From assembly GCA_963785255.1 (NCBI GenBank), contig CAWAUR010000003.1:443057-507056 (forward strand): a stretch of DNA of 64,000 nucleotides, read 5' to 3'. This stretch comes from Bryobacterales bacterium (GTDB lineage: Bacteria > Acidobacteriota > Terriglobia > Bryobacterales > Bryobacteraceae). Shown piece by piece: positions 3,319 through 55,796 of the stretch. The position numbers were made by a program, and so were the translations under genes. The first letter of the stretch is position 1. Each line of letters begins with the position of its first letter. Under the pieces are notes generated by a model that did not search any database, had not been told where the DNA came from, and saw only the letters and a list, made by a program, of their open reading frames with translations.

Positions 3319-3520
3319 GTAGGACAGGCCTCCTGGCCTGTCCAGTAGGCGAGCGTTGCTCGCCAAAGGCGAGGGTTGCTCGCCAAAGAGCGGGCCTACG
3401 AGGCCCGCGCAGGCAGAGTGCCTGCCCCACAACGGCGGGCAGAATGTAGAAAGTCGAGAGGACGGGACTGCTGGCCTGTCCATCCGGCGTGGGGCAGGGT
3501 GCGGCAGTGCCTGCCCCACA
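3319..3520. repeat. Composite REP cluster in the divergent glcD/uxaC intergenic region
   Basis: Contains four palindromes in series: GTAGGACAGGCCTCCTGGCCTGTCC, two GGCGAGCGTTGCTCGCC-type hairpins, GCGGGCCTACGAGGCCCGC, and two GCCTGCCCCACA-type arms. Confidence 0.8.
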
Positions 3521-3554: not shown

Positions 3555-4952
3555 ATGCCCTTCATCACCCGCGATTTTCTGCTCAACAATCCGGCCGCCA
3601 GACGGCTGTATCATGACTTTGCCGAGCCGGAGCCCATCCTCGATTACCATTGCCATCTCCCGCCGCAAGATATCGCCGCGAACCGCCGGTTCGCCGATCT
3701 GGCCGCTATCTGGCTGGAGGGCGATCATTATAAGTGGCGCGCCATGCGGGCTAACGGCGTGGATGAGCGTTACTGCACGGGCGATGCGCCGCCATTCGAG
3801 AAGTTCCGCGCGTGGGCGGCCACCGTTCCTCAAACGTTGCGCAATCCTTTGTATCATTGGACGCATCTCGAACTGAAGCGCTACTTCGGCGTGGACGAGT
3901 TGCTGGATGAGGAGAGCGCTCCGCGCATCTGGGAACAGGCCAATGCGCTGCTGGCTACGCCGGACTTGCGCACGCATGGCATACTGGGCCGGTTTCGCGT
4001 GACGCACTTGTGCACCACGGACGATCCCACGGACGACCTAGCGTGCCATCGCGCGATTCAGGCGTCGGCCCTTGAAACCCGCGTATTCCCGGCTTTTCGT
4101 CCGGATAAGGCGCTGATGGTTCACCGGCCCGAACTCTTCAATCCGTGGGTGGAGCAGTTAGCGGCCGCGAGTGACGTAGATATCGGCTCACTCGACGATT
4201 TCACGGACGCATTGCTGCGCAGGCACGACGAGTTTCACGAATTAGGCGCGCGTCTGTCCGATCATGGGCTCAACCAGTGCTACGCGTCATTCTGCGCGGA
4301 TCGCGAAGCCGCCCGAGTGTTCGACCGGGCGCGCGCGGGGCACGCTGCCGGCGCGGACGAACAGGCTGCCTTTGCGTCCTTTATGATGCTCTTCTTTGGG
4401 CATTTGGACGCCGAAAAAGGTTGGACCAAGCAACTCCACTTAGGCGCTTATCGCAGCGCCAATACGCGGCGCCTCGGCGAAGTAGGTCCGGATTCGGGTT
4501 TCGATTCGATCGGCGATTGGCCGCAAGTGGCCTCGTTGGGCGCATATCTGGACCGCTTAGAGATGGAGAACGCGCTGCCGAAGATGATTATCTACAATGT
4601 CAACCCGATTGATAATTATGCGCTCGCGACCATGACCGGTAACTTCCAGGACGGTAAGATCGCCGGCAAGATACAATTCGGCAGCGGCTGGTGGTTTCTG
4701 GATCAAAAGGAAGGCATGGAATGGCAGATCAATGCGTTGTCGAATACGGGTTTGCTGTCGCGGTTCATCGGCATGCTGACCGATTCACGATCGTTCATGT
4801 CTTATCCGCGGCACGAGTATTTCCGGCGGGTGTTATGTAGCTTGATTGGGGAAGATATGGAACGGGGCTTGATTCCGGATAGCAATGAGTTAGTCGGACC
4901 GATGATCCGGAATATCTGTTACGGAAACGCGAAGGAGTATCTGGCGCTGTAG
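3555..4952 (+). CDS. uxaC: Glucuronate (uronate) isomerase
   Basis: 465 aa. MPFITRDFLLNN..LYHDFA...PILDYHCHLPPQDIA and ..KIQFGSGWWFLDQKEGM.. are classic UxaC motifs. Confidence 0.92.
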   Translation: MPFITRDFLLNNPAARRLYHDFAEPEPILDYHCHLPPQDIAANRRFADLAAIWLEGDHYKWRAMRANGVDERYCTGDAPPFEKFRAWAATVPQTLRNPLYHWTHLELKRYFGVDELLDEESAPRIWEQANALLATPDLRTHGILGRFRVTHLCTTDDPTDDLACHRAIQASALETRVFPAFRPDKALMVHRPELFNPWVEQLAAASDVDIGSLDDFTDALLRRHDEFHELGARLSDHGLNQCYASFCADREAARVFDRARAGHAAGADEQAAFASFMMLFFGHLDAEKGWTKQLHLGAYRSANTRRLGEVGPDSGFDSIGDWPQVASLGAYLDRLEMENALPKMIIYNVNPIDNYALATMTGNFQDGKIAGKIQFGSGWWFLDQKEGMEWQINALSNTGLLSRFIGMLTDSRSFMSYPRHEYFRRVLCSLIGEDMERGLIPDSNELVGPMIRNICYGNAKEYLAL

Positions 4953-5017
4953 GACAGGCCTCCCGGCCTGTCCAAGACGAGCGAAACTCGCCGAAGAGCG
5001 GGCCTACGAGGCCCGCG
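4949..5017. repeat. REP cluster; supplies the uxaC TAG stop and forms the 3' exon flank of the intron
   Basis: GTAGGACAGGCCTCCCGGCCTGTCC, then GCGAAACTCGCC, then GCGGGCCTACGAGGCCCGCG. The uxaC stop codon (4950-4952) is the TAG of the GTAG head. Confidence 0.8.
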
Positions 5018-6952
5018 GTCGCGGTAGGGATGCCGGTTGCCCGGCACCCCCCGCACAGATCCGTGCGAGCGCTCCTAACGCACACGGTTCTTACCTTGGA
5101 TGTGCTGCCACGCAAAGCGAACGTCAGGATACGGATGCAGAATTTCGACGTCCGGGATGAGGCACCCGAGTTTCTCCCAAAATTTGTTCCAGGTCCAGCG
5201 GGTTCTTTGACTCCGCCGCCGAAGCTGCCACCACCACATGCGTAGCACTTCGTGCCGGAACGCTTTCAGTCGTTCCTCGTTGCGCGGCACGGCGTGATAT
5301 CGGAAATATCCGCGAACCACCGATTGCAGCCACCCCGTCGTGTCCGGAACCCGCGCATGCAAGCGTTGGCGGAGCTGTTGCCGAATCTTCTTCAGCTTGG
5401 CGGCCATCCGTTTGCCGATCGTCTTCCGCAGCACCATGAAGTACCCCGTCGCGTGATTCTTCCCACAGATGTGAGTGAAACCCAAAAAGTTGAAGGTTTC
5501 CGGCTTCCCTTCCCCACGCTTCGCCCGCCGTTCAGCGGCATAGCGCCCAAATTCGATCAGGCGCGTCTTCTCCGGATGCAATTCCAGCCCGAACTTCCGC
5601 ACGCGTTCCCGCAATTGCGCCAGAAACTTTTCGGCCTCTTCCCGGTCCTGGAATCCGAACACCACGTCGTCCGCGTACCGCACCGCGATCATGTCGCCGT
5701 GCGCCACCTTCTTCCGCCATGCCTGCACCCACAGATCGAGCACGTAATGCAGGTAGAGATTGGCTAGCAACGGCGAAATCACCGCCCCTTGTGGGGTCCC
5801 TTCCTTCGTCTCGTACCACTGTCCGTCCTCCATCACGCCCGCCTTCAACCATTTCAGGATCAAGCGGACGAGCCGTTCATCTCCTATCCGATGCCGTACG
5901 AACTTTTCCATCTGAGCGTGTTCGACTTTGTCGAAAAACGACCGGATGTCTAAGTCCAGAACGTAGTTCACCTTCTTGCTGGTGATCCCGACGTAGAGCG
6001 CGTCTAGTGCGTCGTGCTGCTTGCGCCCCGGCCGGAACCCGTACGAAATGCCCAGAAAGTCCTCTTCCCAGATCGGATTGAGAACCGCGACCACCGCTGC
6101 CTGGGCGATTTTGTCTTCCAGGGCGGCGATGCCCAATGGCCGTTTCCGCCCATCGGCTTTGTCGATCCAGACTCTCCGCGACGGTTGCGCGCGATAGGCC
6201 CCGCGATGGATGCGTCCATGGAGGTCGGCGAGCCGCTCCTCCAGTTCGTCCCCGTAGGCTTGCCACGTCACCCCGTCCACTCCCGCCGCCGCTTGCCTTT
6301 GCAGGTCGTAGTAGCTGCTGCGGAGCAGGTCGATAGTGACGTGATGCAGCAGGGCGGTGAACCGCAACTGCTTGTCCTTCTGCGCTGCTTGACGTACACG
6401 GTCCAGCCCGCTTGGCCCGCTTTCCCGGCCTTGCATCCGGTACGGGTTAGGCTCTTCCGCATTCTCCTCGGTCAGCGGCCTTCCCTCCGCGATCTCCTTC
6501 GGCCCTCCCTGGCCTGCGTTCGACCGCTTCGTCGGTACTACGCCGCTGTGCGACTCCCCGCCGCCGTGCATCTGGGTCTTATCGCTCATCGCTTTCTCCC
6601 AGCGTTCCGCCCTCTACCGGCGGCGGAAAGCCACGGGGTCTCTCGGTTCTCGCGCGTGAAGTTTCTATGCGTGCGTGGGGTCTACGACTCCGCAGGGCCG
6701 CAACGTGCTCGCGCTGTTTACGCACGCTGCCGTGTTGCCTTCCGGTTAGCCTGACACCGTCGGCGCCCATGATTTTGGCAATTTCGGAGCTCATCAACTT
6801 CAGGGATACCCAGCCCACATATGCCCCAGGCCAACGCTTCAAGTGCGTCGTTGCCGCCGCCCTCACATGGCTCGGGGTCAGGATGGTTCGCTACTCCTTT
6901 CCTGTATGACTCTTTCATTCACTACTTCACGCCGGTTTATCCCGACGCTATC
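5018..6952 (-). mobile_element. Group II intron (about 1.9 kb, endonuclease-less RT/maturase) inserted in a composite REP
   Basis: Contains an RT/maturase ORF. The 3' end has a D5-like hairpin (GAACCGUGUGCG..CGCACGGAUC), a 3-nt linker, then a 14-bp D6-like stem with GCAA loop and a bulged A 8 nt from the ..GAC end. The flanks rejoin to match the intact REP at 49521-49575. The 5' end is not canonical (GAUAG at the junction; nearest GUGAA at 6930). Confidence 0.75.
5075..6589 (-). CDS. Group II intron reverse transcriptase/maturase
   Basis: ..RFTALLHHVT..AAAGVDGVTWQAY.., ISPLLANLYLH, YADDVVFGF (RT5) and FNFLGFTH (thumb/X). No HNH/En domain. The start is uncertain; an internal Met (MQGRESG) is possible. 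Confidence 0.9.
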   Translation of the reverse strand: MSDKTQMHGGGESHSGVVPTKRSNAGQGGPKEIAEGRPLTEENAEEPNPYRMQGRESGPSGLDRVRQAAQKDKQLRFTALLHHVTIDLLRSSYYDLQRQAAAGVDGVTWQAYGDELEERLADLHGRIHRGAYRAQPSRRVWIDKADGRKRPLGIAALEDKIAQAAVVAVLNPIWEEDFLGISYGFRPGRKQHDALDALYVGITSKKVNYVLDLDIRSFFDKVEHAQMEKFVRHRIGDERLVRLILKWLKAGVMEDGQWYETKEGTPQGAVISPLLANLYLHYVLDLWVQAWRKKVAHGDMIAVRYADDVVFGFQDREEAEKFLAQLRERVRKFGLELHPEKTRLIEFGRYAAERRAKRGEGKPETFNFLGFTHICGKNHATGYFMVLRKTIGKRMAAKLKKIRQQLRQRLHARVPDTTGWLQSVVRGYFRYHAVPRNEERLKAFRHEVLRMWWWQLRRRSQRTRWTWNKFWEKLGCLIPDVEILHPYPDVRFAWQHIQGKNRVR

Positions 6953-6975
6953 CAGGCTACGAGCCTGCCCCACAA

Positions 6976-43138: not shown

Positions 43139-44146
43139 ATGGAACTGATCACGATTCTAAACCGCTGCCATCGTTTCCGAGGTTTTGTCTACCAGCACGC
43201 CCACTTCAGTGCCGACAAGAAGTGTATCGAAGTGGCCGTGCGACCGCGCACGGGTTCGGCCGCAGTCTGCTCGCGCTGCCATTTGCCGGCGCCCGGTTAC
43301 GACCAACTCTCCGAACGGCGCTTTGAGTTCATTCCCCTGTGGGGGTTTCTCGTCTTCCTTCTGTACACCATGCGGCGCGTCAACTGTCGCCGCTGCGGCA
43401 TTGTGGCTGTCGAAGAAGTTCCCTGGGGCGACGGCAAACGCACACTGACCAAAGCCTACATGCTCTTCTTAGCCCGTTGGGCGCGGAGACTGTCATGGAA
43501 AGAGACGGCGGAGGCCTTTCGCACCTCCTGGGACAAGGTCTTCGACGCGGTGGAACACGTCGTCACCTTCCAGCTAGAGCACCGGGTGCTAGGCCAAATC
43601 GATGCGATTCGTTTTCACATCGTGGCGAAAATGAACAAGGCACTGGACGAAATCCGAGCGGGAGAATCGCGCCGTATAGCGAGCGAGGGCGGTGTGCCCG
43701 TGCTGAAGAAGTCGCGCTGGCTGCTGCTCAAACGCGAAGAGAATCTGAAGACGGAACAGCGCTTCCGGTTGCGCGATCTGCTCCGTTACAACCTGAAGAC
43801 CGTACGTGCTTAGCTTCTTAAGGAAGCCCTTCAGCAGCTCTGGGATTACAGTTCGCCCGCATGGGCCGGAAAGTTCCTCGATGACTGGTGTCGGCAAGTG
43901 ATGCGCGCGCGCATCGAGCCCATGAAGAACATCGCCCGGTCACTTCGCCATCACCGCGAATTGATCCTCAACTATTTCCGCGCTCAGAAGCTGCTTTCCA
44001 GCGGAGTTGTCGAGGGTCTGAACAACAAGGCTAAAGTCACCATGAGAAAATCCTACGGTTTCCGCACCTTCCGCTGCCTCGAACTTGCGCTCTATCACTC
44101 ACTTGGCAAGTTGCCCGAGCCGGAATCGACCCACGAATTCTTCTGA
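43139..44146 (+). pseudogene. ISL3-family transposase, inactivated (in-frame TAG plus internal deletion)
   Basis: N-terminal zf-ISL3 (..VCSRCH..VNCRRCG..), ..RFHIVAKMNKALDEIR.., C-terminus ..NYFRAQKLLSSGVVEGLNNKAKV..R.SYGFR... TAG at 43811-43813 is in the same frame as ORF 43898. About 336 codons in total, and the DDE core region is largely absent. Confidence 0.75.
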
Positions 44147-48982: not shown

Positions 48983-49145
48983 GACAAGCCTCCTGGCTGT
49001 CCAGGGCGAGCGTTGCTCGCGTGGGGCGAGCGTTGCTCGCGTGGGGCGAGCGTTGCTCGCGTGGGGCGAGCGTTGCTCGCGTGGGGCGAGCGCTGCTCGC
49101 CTAAGAGCGGGCCTACGAGGCCCGCGCAGGCAGGGTGCCTGCCCC
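48979..49145. repeat. REP cluster including five tandem 20-bp hairpin units
   Basis: GTAGGACAAGCCTCCTGGCTGTCC, then five copies of (G)GGGCGAGCGTTGCTCGCGT (49001-49100), then GCGGGCCTACGAGGCCCGC, then GCAGGCAGGGTGCCTGCCCCACA. Confidence 0.85.
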
Positions 49146-49148
49146 ACA

Positions 49149-49460
49149 TCATGCCTTCGTCTTCGGCGGCACGTAATCCGGCGGCAGCGCGGCGCCTTCG
49201 CCGAAGAAGTAATCGTCCATCTGCTTCAGCAGAAATTCCTGCGCCTCTTGCGTCCCCAGGTTGAGCCGGTATTCGTTCATGATCATTTTCATGTGCTCCA
49301 CCCACATCTTCCAGGCTTCCTTGGAGACGTTCTCGTAGATCTTTTGGCCCAGCGGATGCCCTTCGAACGGGACTTCGTCCAGCCCCTGCATCTCGCGCTG
49401 AAACTTGACGCAGAATACCTTGTGCGCGCCTTGGGGTATTTCGATACTGACCGGATTCAT
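49149..49460 (-). CDS. yggX: Fe(2+)-trafficking / oxidative damage protection protein YggX
   Basis: ..VFCVKFQREMQGLDEVPFEGHPLGQKIYENVSKEAWKMWVEHMKMIMNEYRLNL... is colinear with E. coli YggX (..[35 protein letters not shown]..W...Q..LINE..LN). Confidence 0.85.
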   Translation of the reverse strand: MNPVSIEIPQGAHKVFCVKFQREMQGLDEVPFEGHPLGQKIYENVSKEAWKMWVEHMKMIMNEYRLNLGTQEAQEFLLKQMDDYFFGEGAALPPDYVPPKTKA

Positions 49461-49520
49461 CGATCCGCCGCCGCATCCCATGTGCCTATGTCCTCGCCAC
49501 TCCAGGATACTACGGCGCGC

Positions 49521-49611
49521 TGTGGGGCAGGCTCGTAGCCTGCGCGGGCCTCGTAGGCCCGCTCTTTTGGCGCGTTGGCGCGCCGTGGACAGGCCGGGAG
49601 GCCTGTCCTAC
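49521..49611. repeat. Composite REP cluster (intact reference copy for the intron target)
   Basis: TGTGGGGCAGGCTCGTAGCCTGCGCGGGCCTCGTAGGCCCGCTCTTTTGGCG ... GGACAGGCCGGGAGGCCTGTCCTAC. Confidence 0.85.
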
Positions 49612-50192
49612 CCAGTCATGTTCCACTGGGAGATGACGCGCGTATCGCGCTCGTAACCCAGCACGCTCAGCGACGCCGTCGAAAGCGCGAAGAACCTGCC
49701 GGCATCCGGCGCAAGGCCCAGCCAGCAGGCCGTCAGTATCCGCAGCAGGTGCCCGTGCGCGAACAGGGCTACGTCGCCGCCCTCGCCGGCCGCACGCCGA
49801 ATCACGCGCTTCGCCCGCGCGGCCACCCGCTCGATGGTTTCACCCCCCGGCACCGGCGAGGTCCAGATGGTCCAGTCTGGGACAAGCTTCTGAATCTCGG
49901 CGCTGGTGTGGCCTTCATACGCTCCGTAATCCCATTCCTGCAGGTCCGGCTCGTCTTGCGCCACGTCGCCATAGCCCGCCAGGCGGCACGTGTCGCGGGC
50001 GCGCGCGAGCGGGCTGGTCAGCACCAGGGCAAAGCGGCGCCCCGCCAGCCTACGTCCGATATCTTCGGCGTGCCGCCGGCCGGCGTCCGTAAGCGGGAGA
50101 TCGGTGCGGCCCGTGTGTTGCCCCGAGAGGCTCCACGCGGTCTCACCGTGACGAATCAGCCAAATTTCCGGATGGGAATTGTTTTCGGGCAT
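49608..50192 (-). CDS. Histidine phosphatase family protein (phosphoglycerate mutase-like)
   Basis: ..EIWLIRHGETAWS..G.HTGRTD.PLTD.G...A..+G..L......+VLTSPL.RA..T.., ..LFAHGH.LR. RHG catalytic motif. The TAG stop lies in the REP. Confidence 0.85.
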   Translation of the reverse strand: MPENNSHPEIWLIRHGETAWSLSGQHTGRTDLPLTDAGRRHAEDIGRRLAGRRFALVLTSPLARARDTCRLAGYGDVAQDEPDLQEWDYGAYEGHTSAEIQKLVPDWTIWTSPVPGGETIERVAARAKRVIRRAAGEGGDVALFAHGHLLRILTACWLGLAPDAGRFFALSTASLSVLGYERDTRVISQWNMTG

Positions 50193-50286
50193 GCTAATGA
50201 TAAAGCATACCCGATGGAGAGAGGATAGGGAACGCGCCCGTTGCCCCGGCGTAGCTCAGTCGCTCCGCGCAGCCAGGGCGTATGGT

Positions 50287-50364
50287 TCAGATTTGCGCGT
50301 TCGCGTAGCTCGCGATCTCGCAATTAAACGAGATTTCTTCAAAGTCCGGCGTCGTCCACTTCAT
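50287..50364 (-). CDS. pqqA: PqqA-like peptide (PQQ precursor-type, 25 aa)
   Basis: MKWTTPDFEEISFNCEIASYANAQI. MKW..P plus an E-x-x-x-Y core, as in known PqqA peptides (compare MKWAAPIVSEICVGMEVTSYESAEI..). AAGGAGAA SD 7 nt upstream. Too short for the supplied ORF track. Confidence 0.65.
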   Translation of the reverse strand: MKWTTPDFEEISFNCEIASYANAQI

Positions 50365-50393
50365 GTTCAGTTCTCCTTTGCTCTCGGCGAAGG

Positions 50394-51683
50394 CTACCGT
50401 ACGGTAAAACTCGCCTGGGTCGTGTTGGCGCCGCCAGGGGTGGTGACAGTGATGGGCCCGCTGGTGGCGCCCCCGGGCACCGTCGCCCAGACATAATTCG
50501 ACCCGCTGTTGGACACCGCCGTGGCCGGCACGCCGTTGAAGGCCACTGAGGCGGATAGCAGATTCTGCCCCCAAATGCGCACGCGCGTGCCCGGCGCGCC
50601 GGACTGCGGGCTGAACTTCATCGGTAGCGGCTGCGGTTTCGGCAGGCCAACATCCAAGGCGAAGATTTCGCCCGCACCGGCGGCTCCTCCCGCCTGCGCC
50701 GTCCCGTAAATGATTCCGTCGCTGCCCTGCACCAGCGTGCAATTGCAGTAGGCGGTCGTCAGTTCGACTACCGGGCTGTATGCGCCGGACTTGCTAATGC
50801 GGAACAGCAGGCCGTGGCCGCTGCCCACCGTGCCGAGAGTTGCGCCGTAGAGGTTCCCATCGCTTCCCTCGATCAGCTCAATAGGTCCCCCATTGCGTGG
50901 GCTGGCGTAAGTGTACAGTAGCGTGTACTGTCCGGAGGGCGTCAGCTTGTAGATCGTTCCGGAGCCTTGGGGCCCACCCGTCGGAGTGGTCCCATAGAAG
51001 TTACCGTCGCTAGCTTGGAGGATGGCGACACCATAGAATCCGGCGAACGAGCCTGCGGGGAAGTTATATAGTTGCGTCATTGTTCCCGACGGGGTAACGC
51101 GATAGACATAGCCTGTAGTGGCCGGGTTCTGCTGCGAGACGCCATAGTAGTTGCCATCAGTGGCATAGACCACGTTGCTATACAGCCGCTCGCCGGAAGG
51201 AAACTGGTAGACCGGAGTCACCTGGCCGCTGGCGCTGACCCTCACGACGTATGGCGAAGCGTTCAGCAGGCCGACCCCAAGGAACGTGCCGTCCGGCAGG
51301 TTCCGATACAATGCGGGGGCAACGTTCTGGACCGGGCCGGTCACCGCGCTGCCGGGTGAAGAGGTGACCGACAGGACTTGCGGGTTAAAATTGCTCTCGA
51401 CAGCCGAGTAGTATCGCCCATCGGCTCCGCTCACCACGAGCGATATCACCTGAGCGCCGGCGGGCGGAACCGCCAGTGTGCTCATCGTGCCCTTTGAGGT
51501 CACGGAGAAAACATTTCCCGAGGTAACAGAGTAAAACACCCCGGGCGAACCCTCAATGATTCCGGCGGGCTGGTTATACTGGTTGAGCGAGGCCACCGTT
51601 CGGAGGGTCGGCGGGCCCTTGGGCTGCGCGGCCAGGATCGCAACGCCCAGCCCAATGACGATTAACGTTCGGTTCGCGGTCAT
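50394..51683 (-). CDS. Secreted GloVer-repeat protein with C-terminal IPT/TIG domain
   Basis: Signal anchor MTANRTLIVIGLGVAILAAQ. Repeats ..DGNFYGTTPTGGPQGSGTIYKLTPSG.. and ..DGNLYGATLGTVGSGHGLLFRI... The C-terminus ..FSPQSGAPGTRVRIWGQNL...V.FNGVPA......S......VP.GATSGPITVTTPGG is IPT-like. Confidence 0.75.
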   Translation of the reverse strand: MTANRTLIVIGLGVAILAAQPKGPPTLRTVASLNQYNQPAGIIEGSPGVFYSVTSGNVFSVTSKGTMSTLAVPPAGAQVISLVVSGADGRYYSAVESNFNPQVLSVTSSPGSAVTGPVQNVAPALYRNLPDGTFLGVGLLNASPYVVRVSASGQVTPVYQFPSGERLYSNVVYATDGNYYGVSQQNPATTGYVYRVTPSGTMTQLYNFPAGSFAGFYGVAILQASDGNFYGTTPTGGPQGSGTIYKLTPSGQYTLLYTYASPRNGGPIELIEGSDGNLYGATLGTVGSGHGLLFRISKSGAYSPVVELTTAYCNCTLVQGSDGIIYGTAQAGGAAGAGEIFALDVGLPKPQPLPMKFSPQSGAPGTRVRIWGQNLLSASVAFNGVPATAVSNSGSNYVWATVPGGATSGPITVTTPGGANTTQASFTVR

Positions 51684-51715: not shown

Positions 51716-53544
51716 TCAATGGCCGTGTCCACTGTAGACTATTACACCCGAGCAAGGCGCGGATGGGGAGCACGAGGAGCCAGCGCTAGCCGTGATCCCG
51801 GAAGTCGGTATGTAGACGTATCCGTTGTTGATCGTGGGTATGGAGAACGATACACCCGTACTGTTGAAGGAATTCTCGCTTATCTCGAAGAAGGTGCTCT
51901 GCGAGGTCGTGGGACAACTCGATACAACGCTGTTACTCGTGCACCAAATCGGGCCATTAGCCACGTTGGCCGCGTCGTACGCGGCCAGCACCGCCGCTGG
52001 CAAGGAGTTTCCCCCGATTGTCGTGTTGGTCCCCACAATCGCCAGGCCCCAGGCCACCGCGCCACTGCCGCTATTCGAGGTGACGACCACGGATCCACCT
52101 GGGTAGTCTACGTCGCCCGACGCGCTGGTGTCGCGAGCGGGGTTCACGAACCAGCCGCTATAACCCACTGAGTCGGGCAGAGAGGTGCAACTGCACGGAT
52201 TGGATCCCACGGTCGTGCAGGACCCGATTGGATTGGTGAAGGCTTGGTTCACGGTGATCTGAGTGTTGCTCGTGATACCGGTCACGATTCGCGACTGGCC
52301 GCTGTTAGCCGATCCTTCGTCTATGAGCGCGTCGCCGGGAACTAGCCAGGTAGTAAAGGTCGTGCCGCTCCCGCAGATTGTGGTGCCGTTGGACCCGATC
52401 GTCGCACCAGCCGGTTCGATTGCCTGGTTGTTGCTGGACTCGATGGAAGTAAGAGTCTCATTGCTGGGCCAAAGATAGAGGCGTTTGGTCGAGCTGTCCG
52501 GGTCGAAAGCCAAGCTGGTTATCCGGTCGCATGCCGTGTCGCCCTCCAAGTTTTGACACTGCGCCTGATTCCCGGCGAACGGGAAGGCATTGCCTGGGTC
52601 GCCGGTCGCGAATCCCGGATGGCCCCCCAAAGAGGTGGACACGCCCGGGAAGCACAGCGGCGTCTCGTCCGTGGTGTCCCCACAAAGATTGGCCTGTCTC
52701 AGAAGGTAGCCGTAACCCGCCTTGTCGAACGTGAGAAGCCACTGATTGCTGCTGGAGTCGGTGTAGAGCATCACGCCGCTCACGGCCATATCGAAATCGT
52801 TCTGGTTCATGCCCTGAAAAGTGTACGCTGGTGTCGCGCTGCCCTCCGGTGGTGTGACCGGGATTTGTCCGCCCCCTGCGGCGTTCCCGTTGGGTGTAAA
52901 GTACTCCGTGGGGGACGTGGCGAAGCCGGCCGAGGTCGCGGTGAAATCGAGAACGCTTTGGCCCCAGTTGTAAAGCGTCGTGTAAGTGGTGTTCTGCTGG
53001 AAGGGACCATTGCCCACGCCGAAGTACCCGTGGGTGGTGCCCGCCGGGTCTTGGTTTGCGGCGCCCGTGCCGCCGCTCGGGGTGATGTCGCCGGCGTTGA
53101 AGGCGAAGATACTGCCTTCCAGCGTCGCGACAACCAGCAGATTGCAGCCCTCCTCGGTGGGACAGTTCGGGAGTCCCACGCTTGCCGGAACCAGCGCAAG
53201 ATATAGCGGCTGCGCGACCACTGGATTCACGGAGCCGAACGGGATGTTAGCCGTATCCACCTGAAGCGGCGACCAGGTGGCTTCGGGAGAATTGGGTGGG
53301 ACGAGTGTTATCGTTCCATTTGAAATGCACCCCGAAGTCAGCAGACTTTCACCGCCTTGTAGCTTTGCCGCAGGTTGCCGTATTGGGCCGTCCAGACGCT
53401 CGGTGGGTTGCTGCTATCGGCGCATGTAACCGAGGGAACTGCTTGAGCCTCGGCGCGGCGGCATGTTACAGGAGCTAAGGTTGCCACGAGCAGAACAAAC
53501 AGAAGTCCTCGCGGCGAAATGCGACGCGAACCACGAGTGGGCAT
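51716..53544 (-). pseudogene. Secreted Gly/Ser/Thr/Cys-rich beta-propeller-like protein, apparently frameshifted near 53340-53400
   Basis: GGAGGG SD plus ATG at 53544. The signal peptide (..GLLFVLLVATLAPVTCRRAEAQA) is in one frame (ORF 53338..53544). The 514-aa body is in another frame that stays open upstream of 53260. Confidence 0.5.
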
Positions 53545-53769: not shown

Positions 53770-53983
53770 CAGCCCGGCAGGTTTCGCGAGCGCGTTCGAG
53801 CGGACTGGTCAGTACTAAGGCGAAGCGGCGTCGAGCCAGTCTACGCCCGATTTCCTGGGCGTGGCGGCGGCCGGCATCCGTGAGCGGAATATCGGTGCGT
53901 CCAGTGTGCTGCCCGGTCACAGTCCACGCTGTCTCGCCGTGACGGATCAGCCAAATTTCCGGTTGGGAATTATTATCGGGCAT
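53770..53983 (-). pseudogene. Truncated paralogue of the histidine phosphatase gene (first ~72 codons only)
   Basis: MPDNNSQPEIWLIRHGETAWTVTGQHTGRTDIPLTDAGRRHAQEIGRRLARRRFALVLTSPLERARETCR, then unrelated sequence. Colinear with 49980-50192. Confidence 0.7.
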
Positions 53984-54025
53984 GCTAATGATAAAGCATA
54001 CCCGATGGAGGGAGAATAGGGAAAC

Positions 54026-55675: not shown

Positions 55676-55680
55676 TCCGT

Positions 55681-55796
55681 GTGGGGCAGGCACTCTGCCT
55701 GCGCGGGCCTCGTAGGCCCGCTCTTTCGGCGCGCGAAGTGCAGCGCTGCGCCGCAGGCGGCCTGAGAGGCCGCCGCAGGCAGGGTGCCTGCCCCAC
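55681..55796. repeat. Composite REP cluster between convergent pgm and gspK
   Basis: GTGGGGCAGGCACTCTGCCTGCGCGGGCCTCGTAGGCCCGCTCTTTCGGCG ... GCAGGCGGCCTGAGAGGCCGCCGCAGGCAGGGTGCCTGCCCCAC. Confidence 0.85.

What the first reader, a model, noticed from the sequence alone, without database searches (positions are those of the whole stretch)
50287..50364. Orphan PqqA-like peptide gene without pqqBCDE, tucked behind a GloVer/IPT surface-protein gene
A 25-codon ORF that is absent from the ORF track encodes MKWTTPDFEEISFNCEIASYANAQI. It has a strong SD (AAGGAGAA, 7 nt upstream). It shares the MKW..P start, the E-x-x-x-Y cross-link core and the ..SY.nA.I tail of known PqqA precursors (Methylorubrum-type MKWAAPIVSEICVGMEVTSYESAEI.., quoted from memory). 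No pqqB, C, D or E, or any radical-SAM gene, lies within 13 kb on either side. The gene sits 29 nt downstream of a secreted GloVer-repeat protein gene and next to a frameshifted secreted propeller-like gene. All three lie inside a segment bracketed by a duplication. It could be a spare PQQ precursor serving a pqq operon located elsewhere. It could also be a PqqA-like RiPP precursor used by a different maturation system.
Basis: partly seen in the sequence, partly recalled or inferred. Interest (0 to 1): 0.65.

Follow-up and report, generated by a model that had tools for sequence, protein, structure and literature searches.

The report
Stand-alone PQQ precursor gene (pqqA)
A 25-codon gene in a soil Bryobacteraceae (Acidobacteriota) genome is a genuine, conserved extra copy of pqqA, the peptide that is turned into the redox cofactor PQQ; the enzymes that process it appear to lie elsewhere in the same genome, as in some methylotrophs, so it is real but of a known kind.

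Summary
Window 50287-50364 (minus strand) encodes MKWTTPDFEEISFNCEIASYANAQI behind an AAGGAGAA Shine-Dalgarno site, 29 nt after a GloVer-repeat protein gene. No pqqB/C/D/E lies anywhere in the 64 kb.

It is a true PqqA. It passes both curated models narrowly. More tellingly, it belongs to a 25-residue acidobacterial family that in 59 of 75 related genomes sits directly upstream of pqqB-C-D-E.

It is not a relic. The same block (PGM | HisPhos fragment | X | GloVer | pqqA | HisPhos | Iron_traffic) is kept in a relative whose GloVer protein is only about 62% identical. There, pqqA plus its SD is better conserved than its immediate neighbours.

In eight soil metagenomes a contig with collinear pqqB, pqqC/D and pqqE pieces tracks the organism's depth (r = 0.996; absent where the organism is absent). 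So does a second, unlinked, intact pqqA. A contig of the same MAG encodes a PQQ quinohaemoprotein dehydrogenase.

Best reading: one of at least two dispersed pqqA genes feeding a pqqBCDE operon elsewhere. This is a new member of a known kind.

By-product: acidobacterial orphan pqqAs often sit beside unannotated secreted proteins of the PQQ-propeller superfamily.

The parts
50287..50364 (-). pqqA: 25-codon precursor peptide gene, MKWTTPDFEEISFNCEIASYANAQI*. The cross-link pair is E16 and Y20.
   Evidence: PF08042 21.6 bits (cut-off 21.1) and TIGR02107 21.6 (cut-off 20); acidobacterial PqqA HMM 58 bits, E = 8e-16; syntenic orthologue in L137-L140.
50371..50378 (-). Shine-Dalgarno sequence AAGGAGAA, 6 nt before the ATG. 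It lies in the 29-nt spacer after the GloVer stop codon.
   Evidence: 31 of the 36 nt upstream of the ATG are identical in the orthologous locus L137. The second copy and the L145 copy have the same kind of SD.
50394..51683 (-). Secreted GloVer-repeat protein gene (429 aa): beta-propeller plus C-terminal Ig/IPT-like domain. It lies immediately upstream of pqqA and may be co-transcribed with it.
   Evidence: TIGR03803 136.7 bits; AF2 model pLDDT 92.6 and Foldseek matches to galactose oxidase/AA5 and propeller lectins; gene limits as called in L002.
51716..53544 (-). Degenerate 'X-family' gene, a secreted PQQ-propeller-superfamily protein. The 514-aa ORF is 51716-53260. Its first ~63 codons are in another frame (53544-53356), and about 240 residues are missing relative to the 805-aa relative in L141.
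   Evidence: profile A3 against A2 99.95% and A2 against true PQQ dehydrogenases 93.5%; no Pfam or NCBIfam family.
53775..54023 (-). Copy 2 of the 249-nt direct repeat: a truncated 5' leader plus about 70 codons of a histidine-phosphatase gene, next to the divergent PGM gene.
   Evidence: also present in L137, so it is old.
49984..50232 (-). Copy 1 of the direct repeat: the leader and 5' end of the intact histidine-phosphatase gene. It starts 54 nt after the pqqA stop codon.
49149..50192 (-). Downstream genes of the conserved block: histidine phosphatase (49608-50192) and the Fe(2+)-trafficking protein (49149-49481). These are context only and are not pqq genes.
   Evidence: Pfam PF00300 and PF04362; same order in L137-L140.

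Best explanation
The ORF is a functional pqqA gene. It encodes the ribosomally made precursor of pyrroloquinoline quinone, but it stands apart from the processing genes.

Mechanism (established for the family; inferred here): the 25-residue peptide is bound through its N-terminal part (W3, P6, F8, E9-E10-I11) by the chaperone PqqD. The radical-SAM enzyme PqqE joins C-gamma of Glu16 to ring C3 of Tyr20. A peptidase frees the Glu-Tyr unit, and PqqB and PqqC finish PQQ, which then loads periplasmic quinoproteins.

In this Bryobacteraceae organism pqqB-C-D-E lie on another contig of the genome. The window gene is one of at least two unlinked pqqA copies. It has been kept at this exact position, behind a GloVer-protein gene and in front of a histidine-phosphatase gene, since before the split from a relative with about 62% GloVer identity.

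Its most likely role is to add to, or separately regulate, precursor supply. It is probably transcribed with or just behind the upstream secreted-protein cassette. I could not determine whether the operon also has its own pqqA, that is, whether the orphans are spare copies or the only copies.

Shown: the sequence, family membership, absence of pqqBCDE from the 64 kb, syntenic conservation, and co-abundance of an operon contig and a second copy. Inferred: that these contigs are one genome, that the gene is expressed, and that the peptide is converted to PQQ.
For: 1. Family. The peptide passes PF08042 and TIGR02107. The narrow margin is a property of the clade: operon-linked acidobacterial PqqAs score 14-29 bits and the commonest one fails both cut-offs. 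In the genome scan, 59 of 75 acidobacterial peptides of this type are followed within 450 nt by pqqB, then pqqC, D and E. The window keeps residues that the search pattern did not impose: C15 (40/40), S19, A23 and N14.

2. Selection. The orthologous locus L137-L140 has the same gene order and the peptide MNWTTPDFEEVALNCEINSYSNAQI. Between the two loci pqqA is 85.9% identical at nucleotide level, against GloVer 67% and HisPhos 78%; the more distant PGM and Iron_traffic genes are about 85%. 31 of the 36 upstream nt, including the SD, are identical. The ORF is identical in six runs from several studies.

3. Maturation genes in the genome. One contig per run carries pieces of pqqB, pqqC/D and pqqE in collinear order. 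Its depth against the window contig's depth is 16.9/18.3, 10.8/13, 10.3/11.9, 5.5/5.5, 26.9/27.5 and 5.4/5.0. It is absent from the two runs that lack the organism (r = 0.996). Other pqq contigs in these runs have depths of 40-184. Its PqqE stretch and its upstream neighbour are closest to a Bryobacterales operon, L047. The MAG itself is labelled Bryobacteraceae.

4. Second copy. A different contig (9861 nt) carries SD-ATG-GCC...SSYAPAEI*, at depths tracking the organism in six runs and absent from two.

5. A PQQ user. Contigs that encode P0164, a protein also encoded in the same MAG, carry the window's lineage-specific REP-like element and encode a 602-aa PQQ quinohaemoprotein dehydrogenase.

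6. Precedent. Orphan pqqA2 and pqqA3 in M. extorquens AM1 are expressed and regulated, and in Methylovorus (five copies) PqqA supply limits PQQ synthesis (PMC11317620). The PqqD/PqqE chemistry is described in PMC5715301. A Bryobacteraceae propeller protein binds PQQ (preprint 10.64898/2026.07.10.737718).
Against: - The operon and the second copy are linked to the window only by co-abundance and taxonomic fit, not by a physical join. I could not retrieve their sequences.
- There is no expression evidence: no RNA run is served, and no promoter or terminator consensus lies near the gene.
- Two residues are atypical for the clade: F13 (elsewhere L) and A18 (elsewhere N or S).
- Between the two orthologues, 6 of the 8 differing codons are non-synonymous, although all fall at variable positions.
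- The upstream X-family gene at this locus is decaying.
- A related GloVer-linked copy shows W3G in one assembly (L146), so some orphans do degenerate.
Confidence: 0.75

Rival explanations
1. Evolutionary leftover: an intact-looking but functionally idle pqqA that rode along in a duplicated or rearranged 'X-GloVer-pqqA' cassette and contributes nothing to PQQ synthesis.
For: The adjacent X-family gene is frameshifted and internally deleted. A related GloVer-linked copy carries C15R, and W3G in one assembly. The closest GloVer relative (about 88% protein identity) has the cassette without pqqA. The window peptide has two clade-atypical residues. 6 of the 8 codon differences from the orthologue are non-synonymous.
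Against: The ORF, its SD and its position are kept across a divergence at which the flanking GloVer gene has fallen to 67% nucleotide identity. The region after the stop codon no longer aligns. All core residues are intact. A 78-nt ORF under no constraint would be expected to pick up a stop codon or an indel over that distance.
Confidence: 0.13
2. A PqqA-like peptide with a job other than free PQQ: a substrate of a different maturation system, or a partner of the neighbouring secreted propeller proteins (X-family or GloVer).
For: pqqA follows a GloVer gene within 19-31 nt in three or four separate contexts, and at 406 nt in L110. X-family genes, which belong to the PQQ-propeller superfamily, lie near 4 of 8 acidobacterial orphans but only 2 of 59 operon-linked pqqAs (p = 0.0012).
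Against: No rSAM, RRE or other peptide-modifying gene is at this locus or at the syntenic one. The peptide cannot be told apart from operon-linked PqqAs. The GloVer model shows no PQQ-enzyme likeness. Six of nine GloVer genes examined have no pqqA behind them. Adjacency to quinoprotein-like genes is explained just as well by co-regulation of ordinary PQQ supply.
Confidence: 0.09
3. Chance ORF in GC-rich intergenic DNA that merely resembles PqqA.
For: It is only 25 codons long, the gene callers missed it in L001, L002, L137 and L138, and its curated HMM scores are marginal.
Against: E = 8e-16 against the clade HMM. The motif is expected 0.05 times per window. The orthologue is conserved and has a conserved SD. 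JGI's caller did call it in L139 and L140, with a PqqA Pfam hit.
Confidence: 0.01

Closest known systems
PqqA of canonical pqqABCDE(F) operons (Klebsiella pneumoniae, Methylorubrum extorquens; Pfam PF08042, NCBIfam TIGR02107)
   Same: A small peptide (25 aa) with the W-x-x-P leader, the Glu-x3-Tyr pair that PqqE cross-links and a short tail. It passes both curated models.
   Different: It is not next to pqqB-E. It belongs to an acidobacterial subtype with N-C-E-I-[NSA]-S-Y in place of G-x-E-V-T-x-Y, which the curated models score poorly.
Operon-linked acidobacterial PqqA (e.g. MEWTTPSFEEISLNCEISSYANAEL in L113; MEWTTPQHEEIDLNCEISSYANAEL in Acidoferrales)
   Same: Same length. 18 of the 23 residues from W3 onward are identical to L113. 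Same invariant C15, S19 and A23.
   Different: Those genes are followed within 4-140 nt by pqqB, C, D and E. The window gene is followed by a histidine-phosphatase gene. The window peptide has F13 and A18.
Orphan or multiple pqqA genes of methylotrophs (pqqA2 and pqqA3 of M. extorquens AM1; five pqqA genes in Methylovorus sp. MP688)
   Same: Extra pqqA copies unlinked to the operon in a genome that has pqqBCDE. In those organisms they are expressed, differently regulated and can limit PQQ output (PMC11317620). Here there are at least two unlinked copies plus an operon contig.
   Different: A different phylum, and an uncultured soil Bryobacteraceae. Regulation and expression are untested. The position behind a GloVer-protein gene has, to my knowledge, not been described.
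pqqA genes placed beside PQQ-dependent dehydrogenase genes (seen here in Actinomycetota L104/L023 and in Vineibacter L027)
   Same: A stand-alone pqqA next to a gene of the PQQ-propeller superfamily.
   Different: Those neighbours are clear PF01011 dehydrogenases (227-324 bits). Here the neighbour is a degenerate member of an unannotated, only distantly related family.

Membership tests
PqqA (PF08042 / TIGR02107) | Score above the curated cut-offs of the family models | tested here: met
   PF08042 21.6 against 21.1; TIGR02107 21.6 against 20. The margin is typical for the clade.
PqqA (PF08042 / TIGR02107) | Small peptide with a conserved Glu and Tyr separated by three residues (the atoms that become PQQ) | tested here: met
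   25 aa; E16-I-A-S-Y20; aligned with E and Y in 48 distinct acidobacterial PqqAs.
PqqA (PF08042 / TIGR02107) | N-terminal recognition part (W-x-x-P ... hydrophobic/acidic) used by PqqD | tested here: met
   W3, P6, F8, E9, E10 and I11 are present. Binding itself is not testable here. These positions were imposed by my search pattern, so their invariance among the relatives is not independent evidence.
PqqA (PF08042 / TIGR02107) | Gene adjacent to pqqB-C-D-E | tested here: not met
   No PqqB/C/D/E in the 64 kb and none in the syntenic locus. The feature is met by 59 of 75 homologues of the same subtype. Adjacency is usual for the family but does not define it: orphan copies are documented.
PqqA (PF08042 / TIGR02107) | pqqD/pqqE/pqqC present in the same genome | tested here: inconclusive
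   There is strong indirect support. A contig with collinear pqqB, C/D and E pieces co-varies with the organism in 6 runs and is absent from 2 (r = 0.996). There is no physical link, and its sequence was not retrieved.
PqqA (PF08042 / TIGR02107) | Peptide is converted to PQQ | not testable with these tools
   This needs biochemistry or genetics.
Multi-copy / orphan pqqA arrangement (as in M. extorquens AM1 and Methylovorus MP688) | More than one pqqA per genome, with at least one unlinked to the operon | tested here: met
   The window copy is unlinked. A second intact copy lies on a separate 9.9-kb contig at the organism's depth in 6 of 6 positive runs and in 0 of 2 negative runs. That both belong to one genome rests on co-abundance.
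Multi-copy / orphan pqqA arrangement (as in M. extorquens AM1 and Methylovorus MP688) | Copies expressed and differently regulated | not testable with these tools
   No RNA run holds the locus.
Other radical-SAM/RRE-dependent RiPP precursor | A dedicated rSAM enzyme and/or PqqD-like RRE protein encoded beside the precursor | tested here: not met
   Pfam and NCBIfam on all flanking genes and the gene calls of the syntenic loci show none.
GloVer-repeat proteins (TIGR03803), for the upstream neighbour | Tandem GloVer repeats above the curated cut-off | tested here: met
   136.7 bits against 44, in 4 stretches. The model is a propeller plus an Ig-like domain.
PQQ-dependent dehydrogenases (PF01011), for the X-family neighbour | Recognisable PQQ-propeller with PQQ- and metal-binding residues | tested here: inconclusive
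   Homology holds at superfamily level only: A2 against true dehydrogenases 93.5%, E = 2e-7; A3 against A2 99.95%; A3 directly against the dehydrogenases 21%. Pfam is below cut-off. Binding residues were not examined. The window copy is degenerate.

The most novel reading that the evidence does not exclude
Orphan pqqA genes in Acidobacteriota flag a new, unannotated family of secreted quinoproteins. The 600-1200-aa 'X-family' belongs to the PQQ-propeller superfamily, has no Pfam model, and is often paired with a GloVer propeller protein. On this reading it uses PQQ, and each cassette carries its own precursor gene so that cofactor supply is switched on together with the apo-enzyme. The window would then show a late stage of such a module, in which the enzyme gene is decaying but the precursor gene has been kept.
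Probability: 0.2. Interest if true: 0.7.

Novelty: new member of a known kind. Interest (0 to 1): 0.4.

Why it matters
There are three practical points.

1. **Annotation.** Acidobacterial PqqAs form a distinct 25-residue subtype that the curated models barely recognise. Gene callers skipped the gene in four of the six near-identical or orthologous loci seen here. PQQ-synthesis capacity in soil Acidobacteriota is therefore likely to be under-reported whenever pqqA is required as a marker.

2. **Biology.** Dispersed, multi-copy pqqA is so far a feature described in methylotrophic Proteobacteria, where precursor supply limits PQQ output. It also occurs in Bryobacteraceae and Terriglobales. These abundant soil bacteria are now known to have many PQQ- and lanthanide-dependent enzymes.

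3. **A lead.** The enrichment of PQQ-propeller-like secreted proteins next to orphan pqqAs gives a cheap genomic handle for finding new quinoproteins.

None of this overturns anything. The gene itself is an ordinary member of a known family in a less usual place.

Tried and rejected
- RNA evidence: no RNA run is served.
- The promoter/terminator scan and the RNA fold around pqqA gave nothing above shuffles.
- Recovering the co-abundant pqq operon's sequence:
  - A PqqE search gave candidates P0017 and P0018. Their operons do not match the substitution fingerprint of the contig.
  - The reconstructed PqqE stretch (V)QSRPLGWIWEESDA(F) is not among the 120 listed hits or in my 118 loci.
  - A 40-mer query built around that stretch found no candidates.
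  - Read laying refuses loci taken from the assemblies collection.
- Both metagenome-contig scans found nothing: the exact flanks of the second copy, and the back-translated PqqE stretch.
- Looking for the second copy behind GloVer paralogues of the same MAG (P0158, P0164): not there.
- Whether the operon contig has its own pqqA: no piece of it lies on the pqqA of L113, L047 or the window at 80% likeness, which does not decide the question.
- Idea rejected: that the bracketing 249-nt duplication marks a recent insertion of the pqqA block. The duplication and the whole block are shared with L137.
- Idea rejected: that the GloVer protein is itself a PQQ enzyme. The confident model resembles galactose-oxidase-type propellers and lectins, not sGDH-type or PQQ-ADH propellers.
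- Profile searches of the X-family against PDB sequences gave only Ig-domain hits.

Full report
**1. The observation**

The ORF lies on the minus strand, 50364 down to 50287, and reads MKWTTPDFEEISFNCEIASYANAQI*. AAGGAGAA sits at 50371-50378, six bases before the ATG. The stop codon of the upstream gene is 29 nt away.

That upstream gene (50394-51683) is a GloVer-repeat protein: TIGR03803, 136.7 bits against a cut-off of 44. A confident AlphaFold model (pLDDT 92.6, 79-sequence alignment) is a beta-propeller followed by an Ig-like domain. The closest solved architectures are galactose oxidase/AA5 enzymes and seven-bladed propeller lectins.

The next gene upstream (514-aa ORF, 51716-53260) has no Pfam or NCBIfam family. 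It is indeed frameshifted. Relative to its homologues, the first ~63 codons lie in another frame at 53544-53356, and about 240 residues are missing.

The bracketing duplication exists. The two copies are 49984-50232 and 53775-54023, 249 nt long and 84% identical. They comprise the leader and about the first 70 codons of the histidine-phosphatase gene. The second copy is a truncated fragment beside the divergent phosphoglucomutase gene.

No pqqB, C, D or E is present anywhere in the 64 kb: tblastn with acidobacterial references gives a best E of 0.1. Pfam on the flanks shows no radical-SAM or PqqD gene (right flank from the gene calls).

**2. Is it a PqqA?**

It passes both curated models, narrowly: PF08042 21.6 against 21.1, and TIGR02107 21.6 against 20. 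The stronger evidence is comparative.

They encode a tight 25-residue family, for example MEWTTPQHEEIDLNCEISSYANAEL and MEWTSPKFEEICLNCEINSYASAEL.

In 59 of 75 acidobacterial loci the peptide gene is followed within 450 nt by pqqB, and then by pqqC, pqqD and pqqE where the block is long enough. This peptide type is therefore the PqqA of acidobacterial pqq operons. An HMM built from 77 of these peptides finds exactly one hit in the window, the ORF in question (58 bits, E = 8e-16).

The marginal curated scores are a property of the clade. Operon-linked members score 14-29 bits, and the commonest one fails both cut-offs.

One caveat applies. W3, P6, E9, E10, I11, E16 and Y20 were imposed by my pattern, so their invariance is not independent evidence. 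C15 (40/40), S19 (36/40), A23 (35/40) and N14 were not imposed, and the window has all four. Its only atypical residues are F13 (elsewhere L) and A18 (elsewhere N or S).

**3. Is the orphan kept by selection?**

The source is an uncultured soil bacterium. The locus occurs in ENA assembly ERZ25039481 and in MAG GCA_052119785.1, and only in soil metagenome runs. Other proteins of that MAG are named 'Bryobacteraceae bacterium'.

A search with the GloVer protein found an orthologue of 63% identity (61% in a global alignment). Its contigs (L137-L140) carry the same block: PGM | HisPhos fragment | X remnant | GloVer | 25-codon pqqA | HisPhos | Iron_traffic. JGI's gene caller called the peptide there, with a PqqA Pfam hit.

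That peptide is MNWTTPDFEEVALNCEINSYSNAQI: six changes, all at positions that vary in the family.

Between the two loci the identities are:

| Feature | Identity |
|---|---|
| pqqA | 85.9% nt |
| 36 nt upstream of the ATG, incl. SD | 31/36 identical |
| GloVer gene | 67% nt |
| HisPhos gene | 78% nt |
| PGM and Iron_traffic genes | about 85% nt |
| DNA after the pqqA stop | no longer aligns |

The duplication of the HisPhos 5' end is also shared. The arrangement is therefore old, not a recent insertion. In six runs from several studies the ORF is identical. An idle 78-nt ORF would not be expected to survive this.

**4. Are the maturation genes in the genome?**

I could not read the rest of the genome directly, so I used a binning-style argument. 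The organism is abundant in several small soil datasets and has a distinctive depth in each.

I laid the same runs on acidobacterial pqq operons at 80% likeness. This showed, besides other pqq contigs at depths of 40-184, one contig per run that matches several pieces:

- the end of pqqB (on L113);
- pqqC (on L047);
- the pqqC/pqqD junction (on L025);
- four or five pieces of pqqE.

These pieces are in collinear order. In the 4390-nt X2 contig the pqqC end lies at about 595, pqqE starts at about 858, and pqqE pieces lie at 1352-1445 and 1612-1756.

Depths across the eight runs:

| Run | Window contig | pqq operon contig | Second pqqA contig |
|---|---|---|---|
| X1 | 18.3 | 16.9 | 17.8 |
| X2 | 13 | 10.8 | 11.2 |
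| X5 | 11.9 | 10.3 | 8.6 |
| X7 | 5.5-5.6 | 5.5 | 4.1 |
| X4 | 27.5 | 26.9 | 25.1 |
| X10 | about 5 | 5.4 | 4.1 |
| X14 | absent | absent | absent |
| X15 | absent | absent | absent |

For the operon contig against the window contig, r = 0.996.

A stretch of the operon contig's PqqE can be reconstructed from the listed substitutions: (V)QSRPLGWIWEESDA(F). It is nearest to a Bryobacterales operon, L047, and the contig also matches L047's upstream neighbour gene. This agrees with the taxonomic label of the MAG.

I rate it about 85% likely that this operon belongs to the same genome. It is not proven.

**5. A second copy and a PQQ user**

Laying the runs on pqqA alone at 80% likeness gave, in every positive run, exactly one further contig (9861 nt in X1 and X2). 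It matches codons 3-17 with 7 mismatches. Its loose ends read ...ACAAGGAGAAATC ATG GCC ... AGT TCC TAC GCG CCA GCC GAG ATA TAG. This is an intact 25-codon gene, MA...SSYAPAEI*, with its own SD.

Its depths track the organism in the six positive runs, and it is absent from the two negative runs (see the table above). The gene lies mid-contig, with about 4.6 kb or more on each side. That contig is not the operon contig, so this is a second unlinked pqqA.

Contigs that encode P0164, a GloVer paralogue found in the same MAG, also encode a 602-aa PQQ quinohaemoprotein dehydrogenase (PF01011 plus cytochrome c). They carry the window's REP-like element, which is absent from all 118 loci of other species. 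The organism thus appears to have a PQQ user as well.

**6. Mechanism**

By established knowledge of the family, PqqD binds PqqA. The radical-SAM/SPASM enzyme PqqE then forms a C-C bond between C-gamma of the conserved Glu and C3 of the conserved Tyr (PMC5715301 and the papers by Barr 2016 and Latham 2015 cited there). Proteolysis follows, and PqqB and PqqC complete PQQ (general knowledge of the pathway).

Here the pair would be Glu16 and Tyr20. That this peptide is so processed is an inference from family membership.

The likely benefit of extra copies is precursor supply or separate regulation. In Methylovorus sp. MP688 (five copies) PqqA availability limits PQQ synthesis. In M. extorquens AM1 the orphan pqqA2 and pqqA3 respond to lanthanide supply while the operon does not (PMC11317620).

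With only 29 nt and no terminator-like site between the GloVer gene and pqqA, co-transcription with the upstream cassette is plausible. It is untested.

**7. Other orphans and their neighbours**

Eight acidobacterial loci with enough downstream sequence lack pqqB-E: L021, L031, L037 (a cultured Tunturiibacter), L054, L062, L065, L089 and L096. Intermediate layouts also exist:

- pqqA-pqqB only (L022, L110);
- pqqA divergent from pqqBCDE (L077).

Several orphans lie beside large proteins that are homologous to each other. Profile comparison places these in the PQQ-propeller superfamily: alignment A2 against true PQQ dehydrogenases gives 93.5%, E = 2e-7 over 310 columns. The ~800-aa proteins that precede GloVer genes, including the window's degenerate 514-aa ORF, are homologous to them (99.95%, E = 2e-38).

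Such genes occur in the fetched block of 4 of 8 orphans but only 2 of 59 operon-linked pqqAs (Fisher p = 0.0012). The blocks are uneven and the scan was truncated.

A pqqA directly follows a GloVer gene in three of nine GloVer contexts examined:

- the window;
- its orthologue L137;
- L145/L146, in an unrelated neighbourhood. That copy reads MNWTIPDCEEISVSREINSYAPAEI, with W3G in L146.

The second copy probably has the same layout, because its upstream end ...AG TAA fits the usual GloVer C-terminus FTVQ*. The remaining six contexts have no pqqA.

This pairing may reflect duplication of a cassette or co-regulation with candidate quinoproteins. I cannot tell which, and I give the functional reading about 20%.

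**8. Comparison, novelty and verdict**

The gene is a member of the PqqA family. All sequence criteria are met. Operon adjacency is not met, but it does not define the family. The arrangement matches the multi-copy, orphan pqqA pattern known from methylotrophic Proteobacteria.

What is new:

- the lineage (Bryobacteraceae and Terriglobales);
- the recognition that the acidobacterial subtype is poorly caught by curated models and gene callers;
- the recurrent placement beside GloVer and PQQ-propeller-like secreted-protein genes.

I file it as a new member of a known kind, with interest 0.4. I put 0.75 confidence on 'functional pqqA feeding a pqqBCDE operon elsewhere in the genome'.

Noticed in passing
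window 49103-49160, 49509-49574, 55680-55733 (also 3385-3431; partial copies at 4994-5017 and 6953-6974): A 46-58-nt GC-rich palindromic REP-like element (TGTGGGGCAGGC...GCGGGCCTCGTAGGCCCGCTCTT) sits at gene ends. In the metagenome runs its depth is 4000-6000 against about 18 for the organism, which suggests a few hundred copies per genome. It is also present on other contigs assigned to the same MAG, and absent from 118 loci of other species.
   Followed up: partly
window 49004-49103: Five tandem copies of a 20-nt unit (GGGCGAGCGTTGCTCGCGTG) lie between the MacB-like permease gene and the Fe(2+)-trafficking gene.
   Followed up: no
not in the window; Logan contigs of runs X1, X2, X4, X5, X7 and X10 that match window 50314-50358: A second intact 25-codon pqqA (SD AAGGAGAA, MA...SSYAPAEI*) lies on a separate ~9.9-kb contig. 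It tracks the organism's depth in six runs and is absent from two negative runs. Its surroundings could not be fetched.
   Followed up: partly
L021:4360-7998, L021:630-3422, L031:2393-4231, L036:1900-3765, L137:2179-4578, L141:228-2645, L145:3743-5950, L142:3615-5984; window 51716-53544: A superfamily of large (600-1200 aa) secreted proteins without a Pfam family is homologous to PQQ-dehydrogenase propellers at profile level. It is enriched next to orphan pqqA genes (4/8 against 2/59). These proteins are candidate new quinoproteins.
   Followed up: partly
L145:7351-7428 and L146, same position: A pqqA-like gene lies 31 nt after a GloVer gene in a glycosyltransferase neighbourhood. It has C15R, and the L146 assembly has W3G. 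It looks like an orphan copy in decay.
   Followed up: partly
L121-L133 (Candidatus Acidiferrales pqq operons), e.g. L122:7935-15272: These operons read pqqA-B-C-D-E, then a SnoaL-like protein and two TldD/PmbA-family peptidase genes. The peptidases are plausible stand-ins for the missing PqqF/G protease. The gene callers annotate pqqA there as a 41-aa ORF with an N-terminal extension, or not at all.
   Followed up: no
L022, L110, L077: Partly dispersed pqq layouts occur in Terriglobales: pqqA-pqqB without pqqCDE nearby (L022; L110, where pqqB is split 127 + 183 aa and a GloVer gene lies upstream), and pqqA transcribed divergently from pqqBCDE (L077).
   Followed up: partly
L001 (ena:ERZ25039481:contig_27428) against the window: This assembly has indel errors. 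The GloVer ORF runs in frame into pqqA (called as one 465-aa gene), and the PGM gene is split into three. Gene calls from it should not be trusted.
   Followed up: yes
L004, L035, L038, L058, L060, L063, L069, L094, L105, L114, L115 and others: Actinomycetota have their own PqqA subtype (W-E-[TA]-P-E-F-E-E-I-x-x-A-P-E-V-T-M-Y-[VI]-A...) upstream of pqqBCDE. It is usually preceded by a ~560-aa gene. In L104, an orphan case, that gene is a clear PQQ dehydrogenase.
   Followed up: no
window 5075-6589 (-) and 43139-43813 (+): A reverse-transcriptase gene (RVT_1, possibly a group II intron or a retron) and fragments of an ISL3-family transposase. L001 has ISL3 fragments at the corresponding place.
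   Followed up: no
L153/L155 against L154/L156, upstream of the P0164 GloVer gene (locus position ~9450): The identical GloVer gene has two different upstream neighbourhoods in different assemblies: an ABC transporter plus a PQQ dehydrogenase, or a NiFe-hydrogenase cluster. This could be two genomic copies, strain variation or a chimeric contig.
   Followed up: no
L151:1073-5538 (GCA_052119785.1, JBKQHD010000043.1): A GloVer paralogue (P0158) appears to sit between two pieces of a class-I tRNA-synthetase gene (819 aa and a 101-aa fragment on the opposite strand).
   Followed up: no
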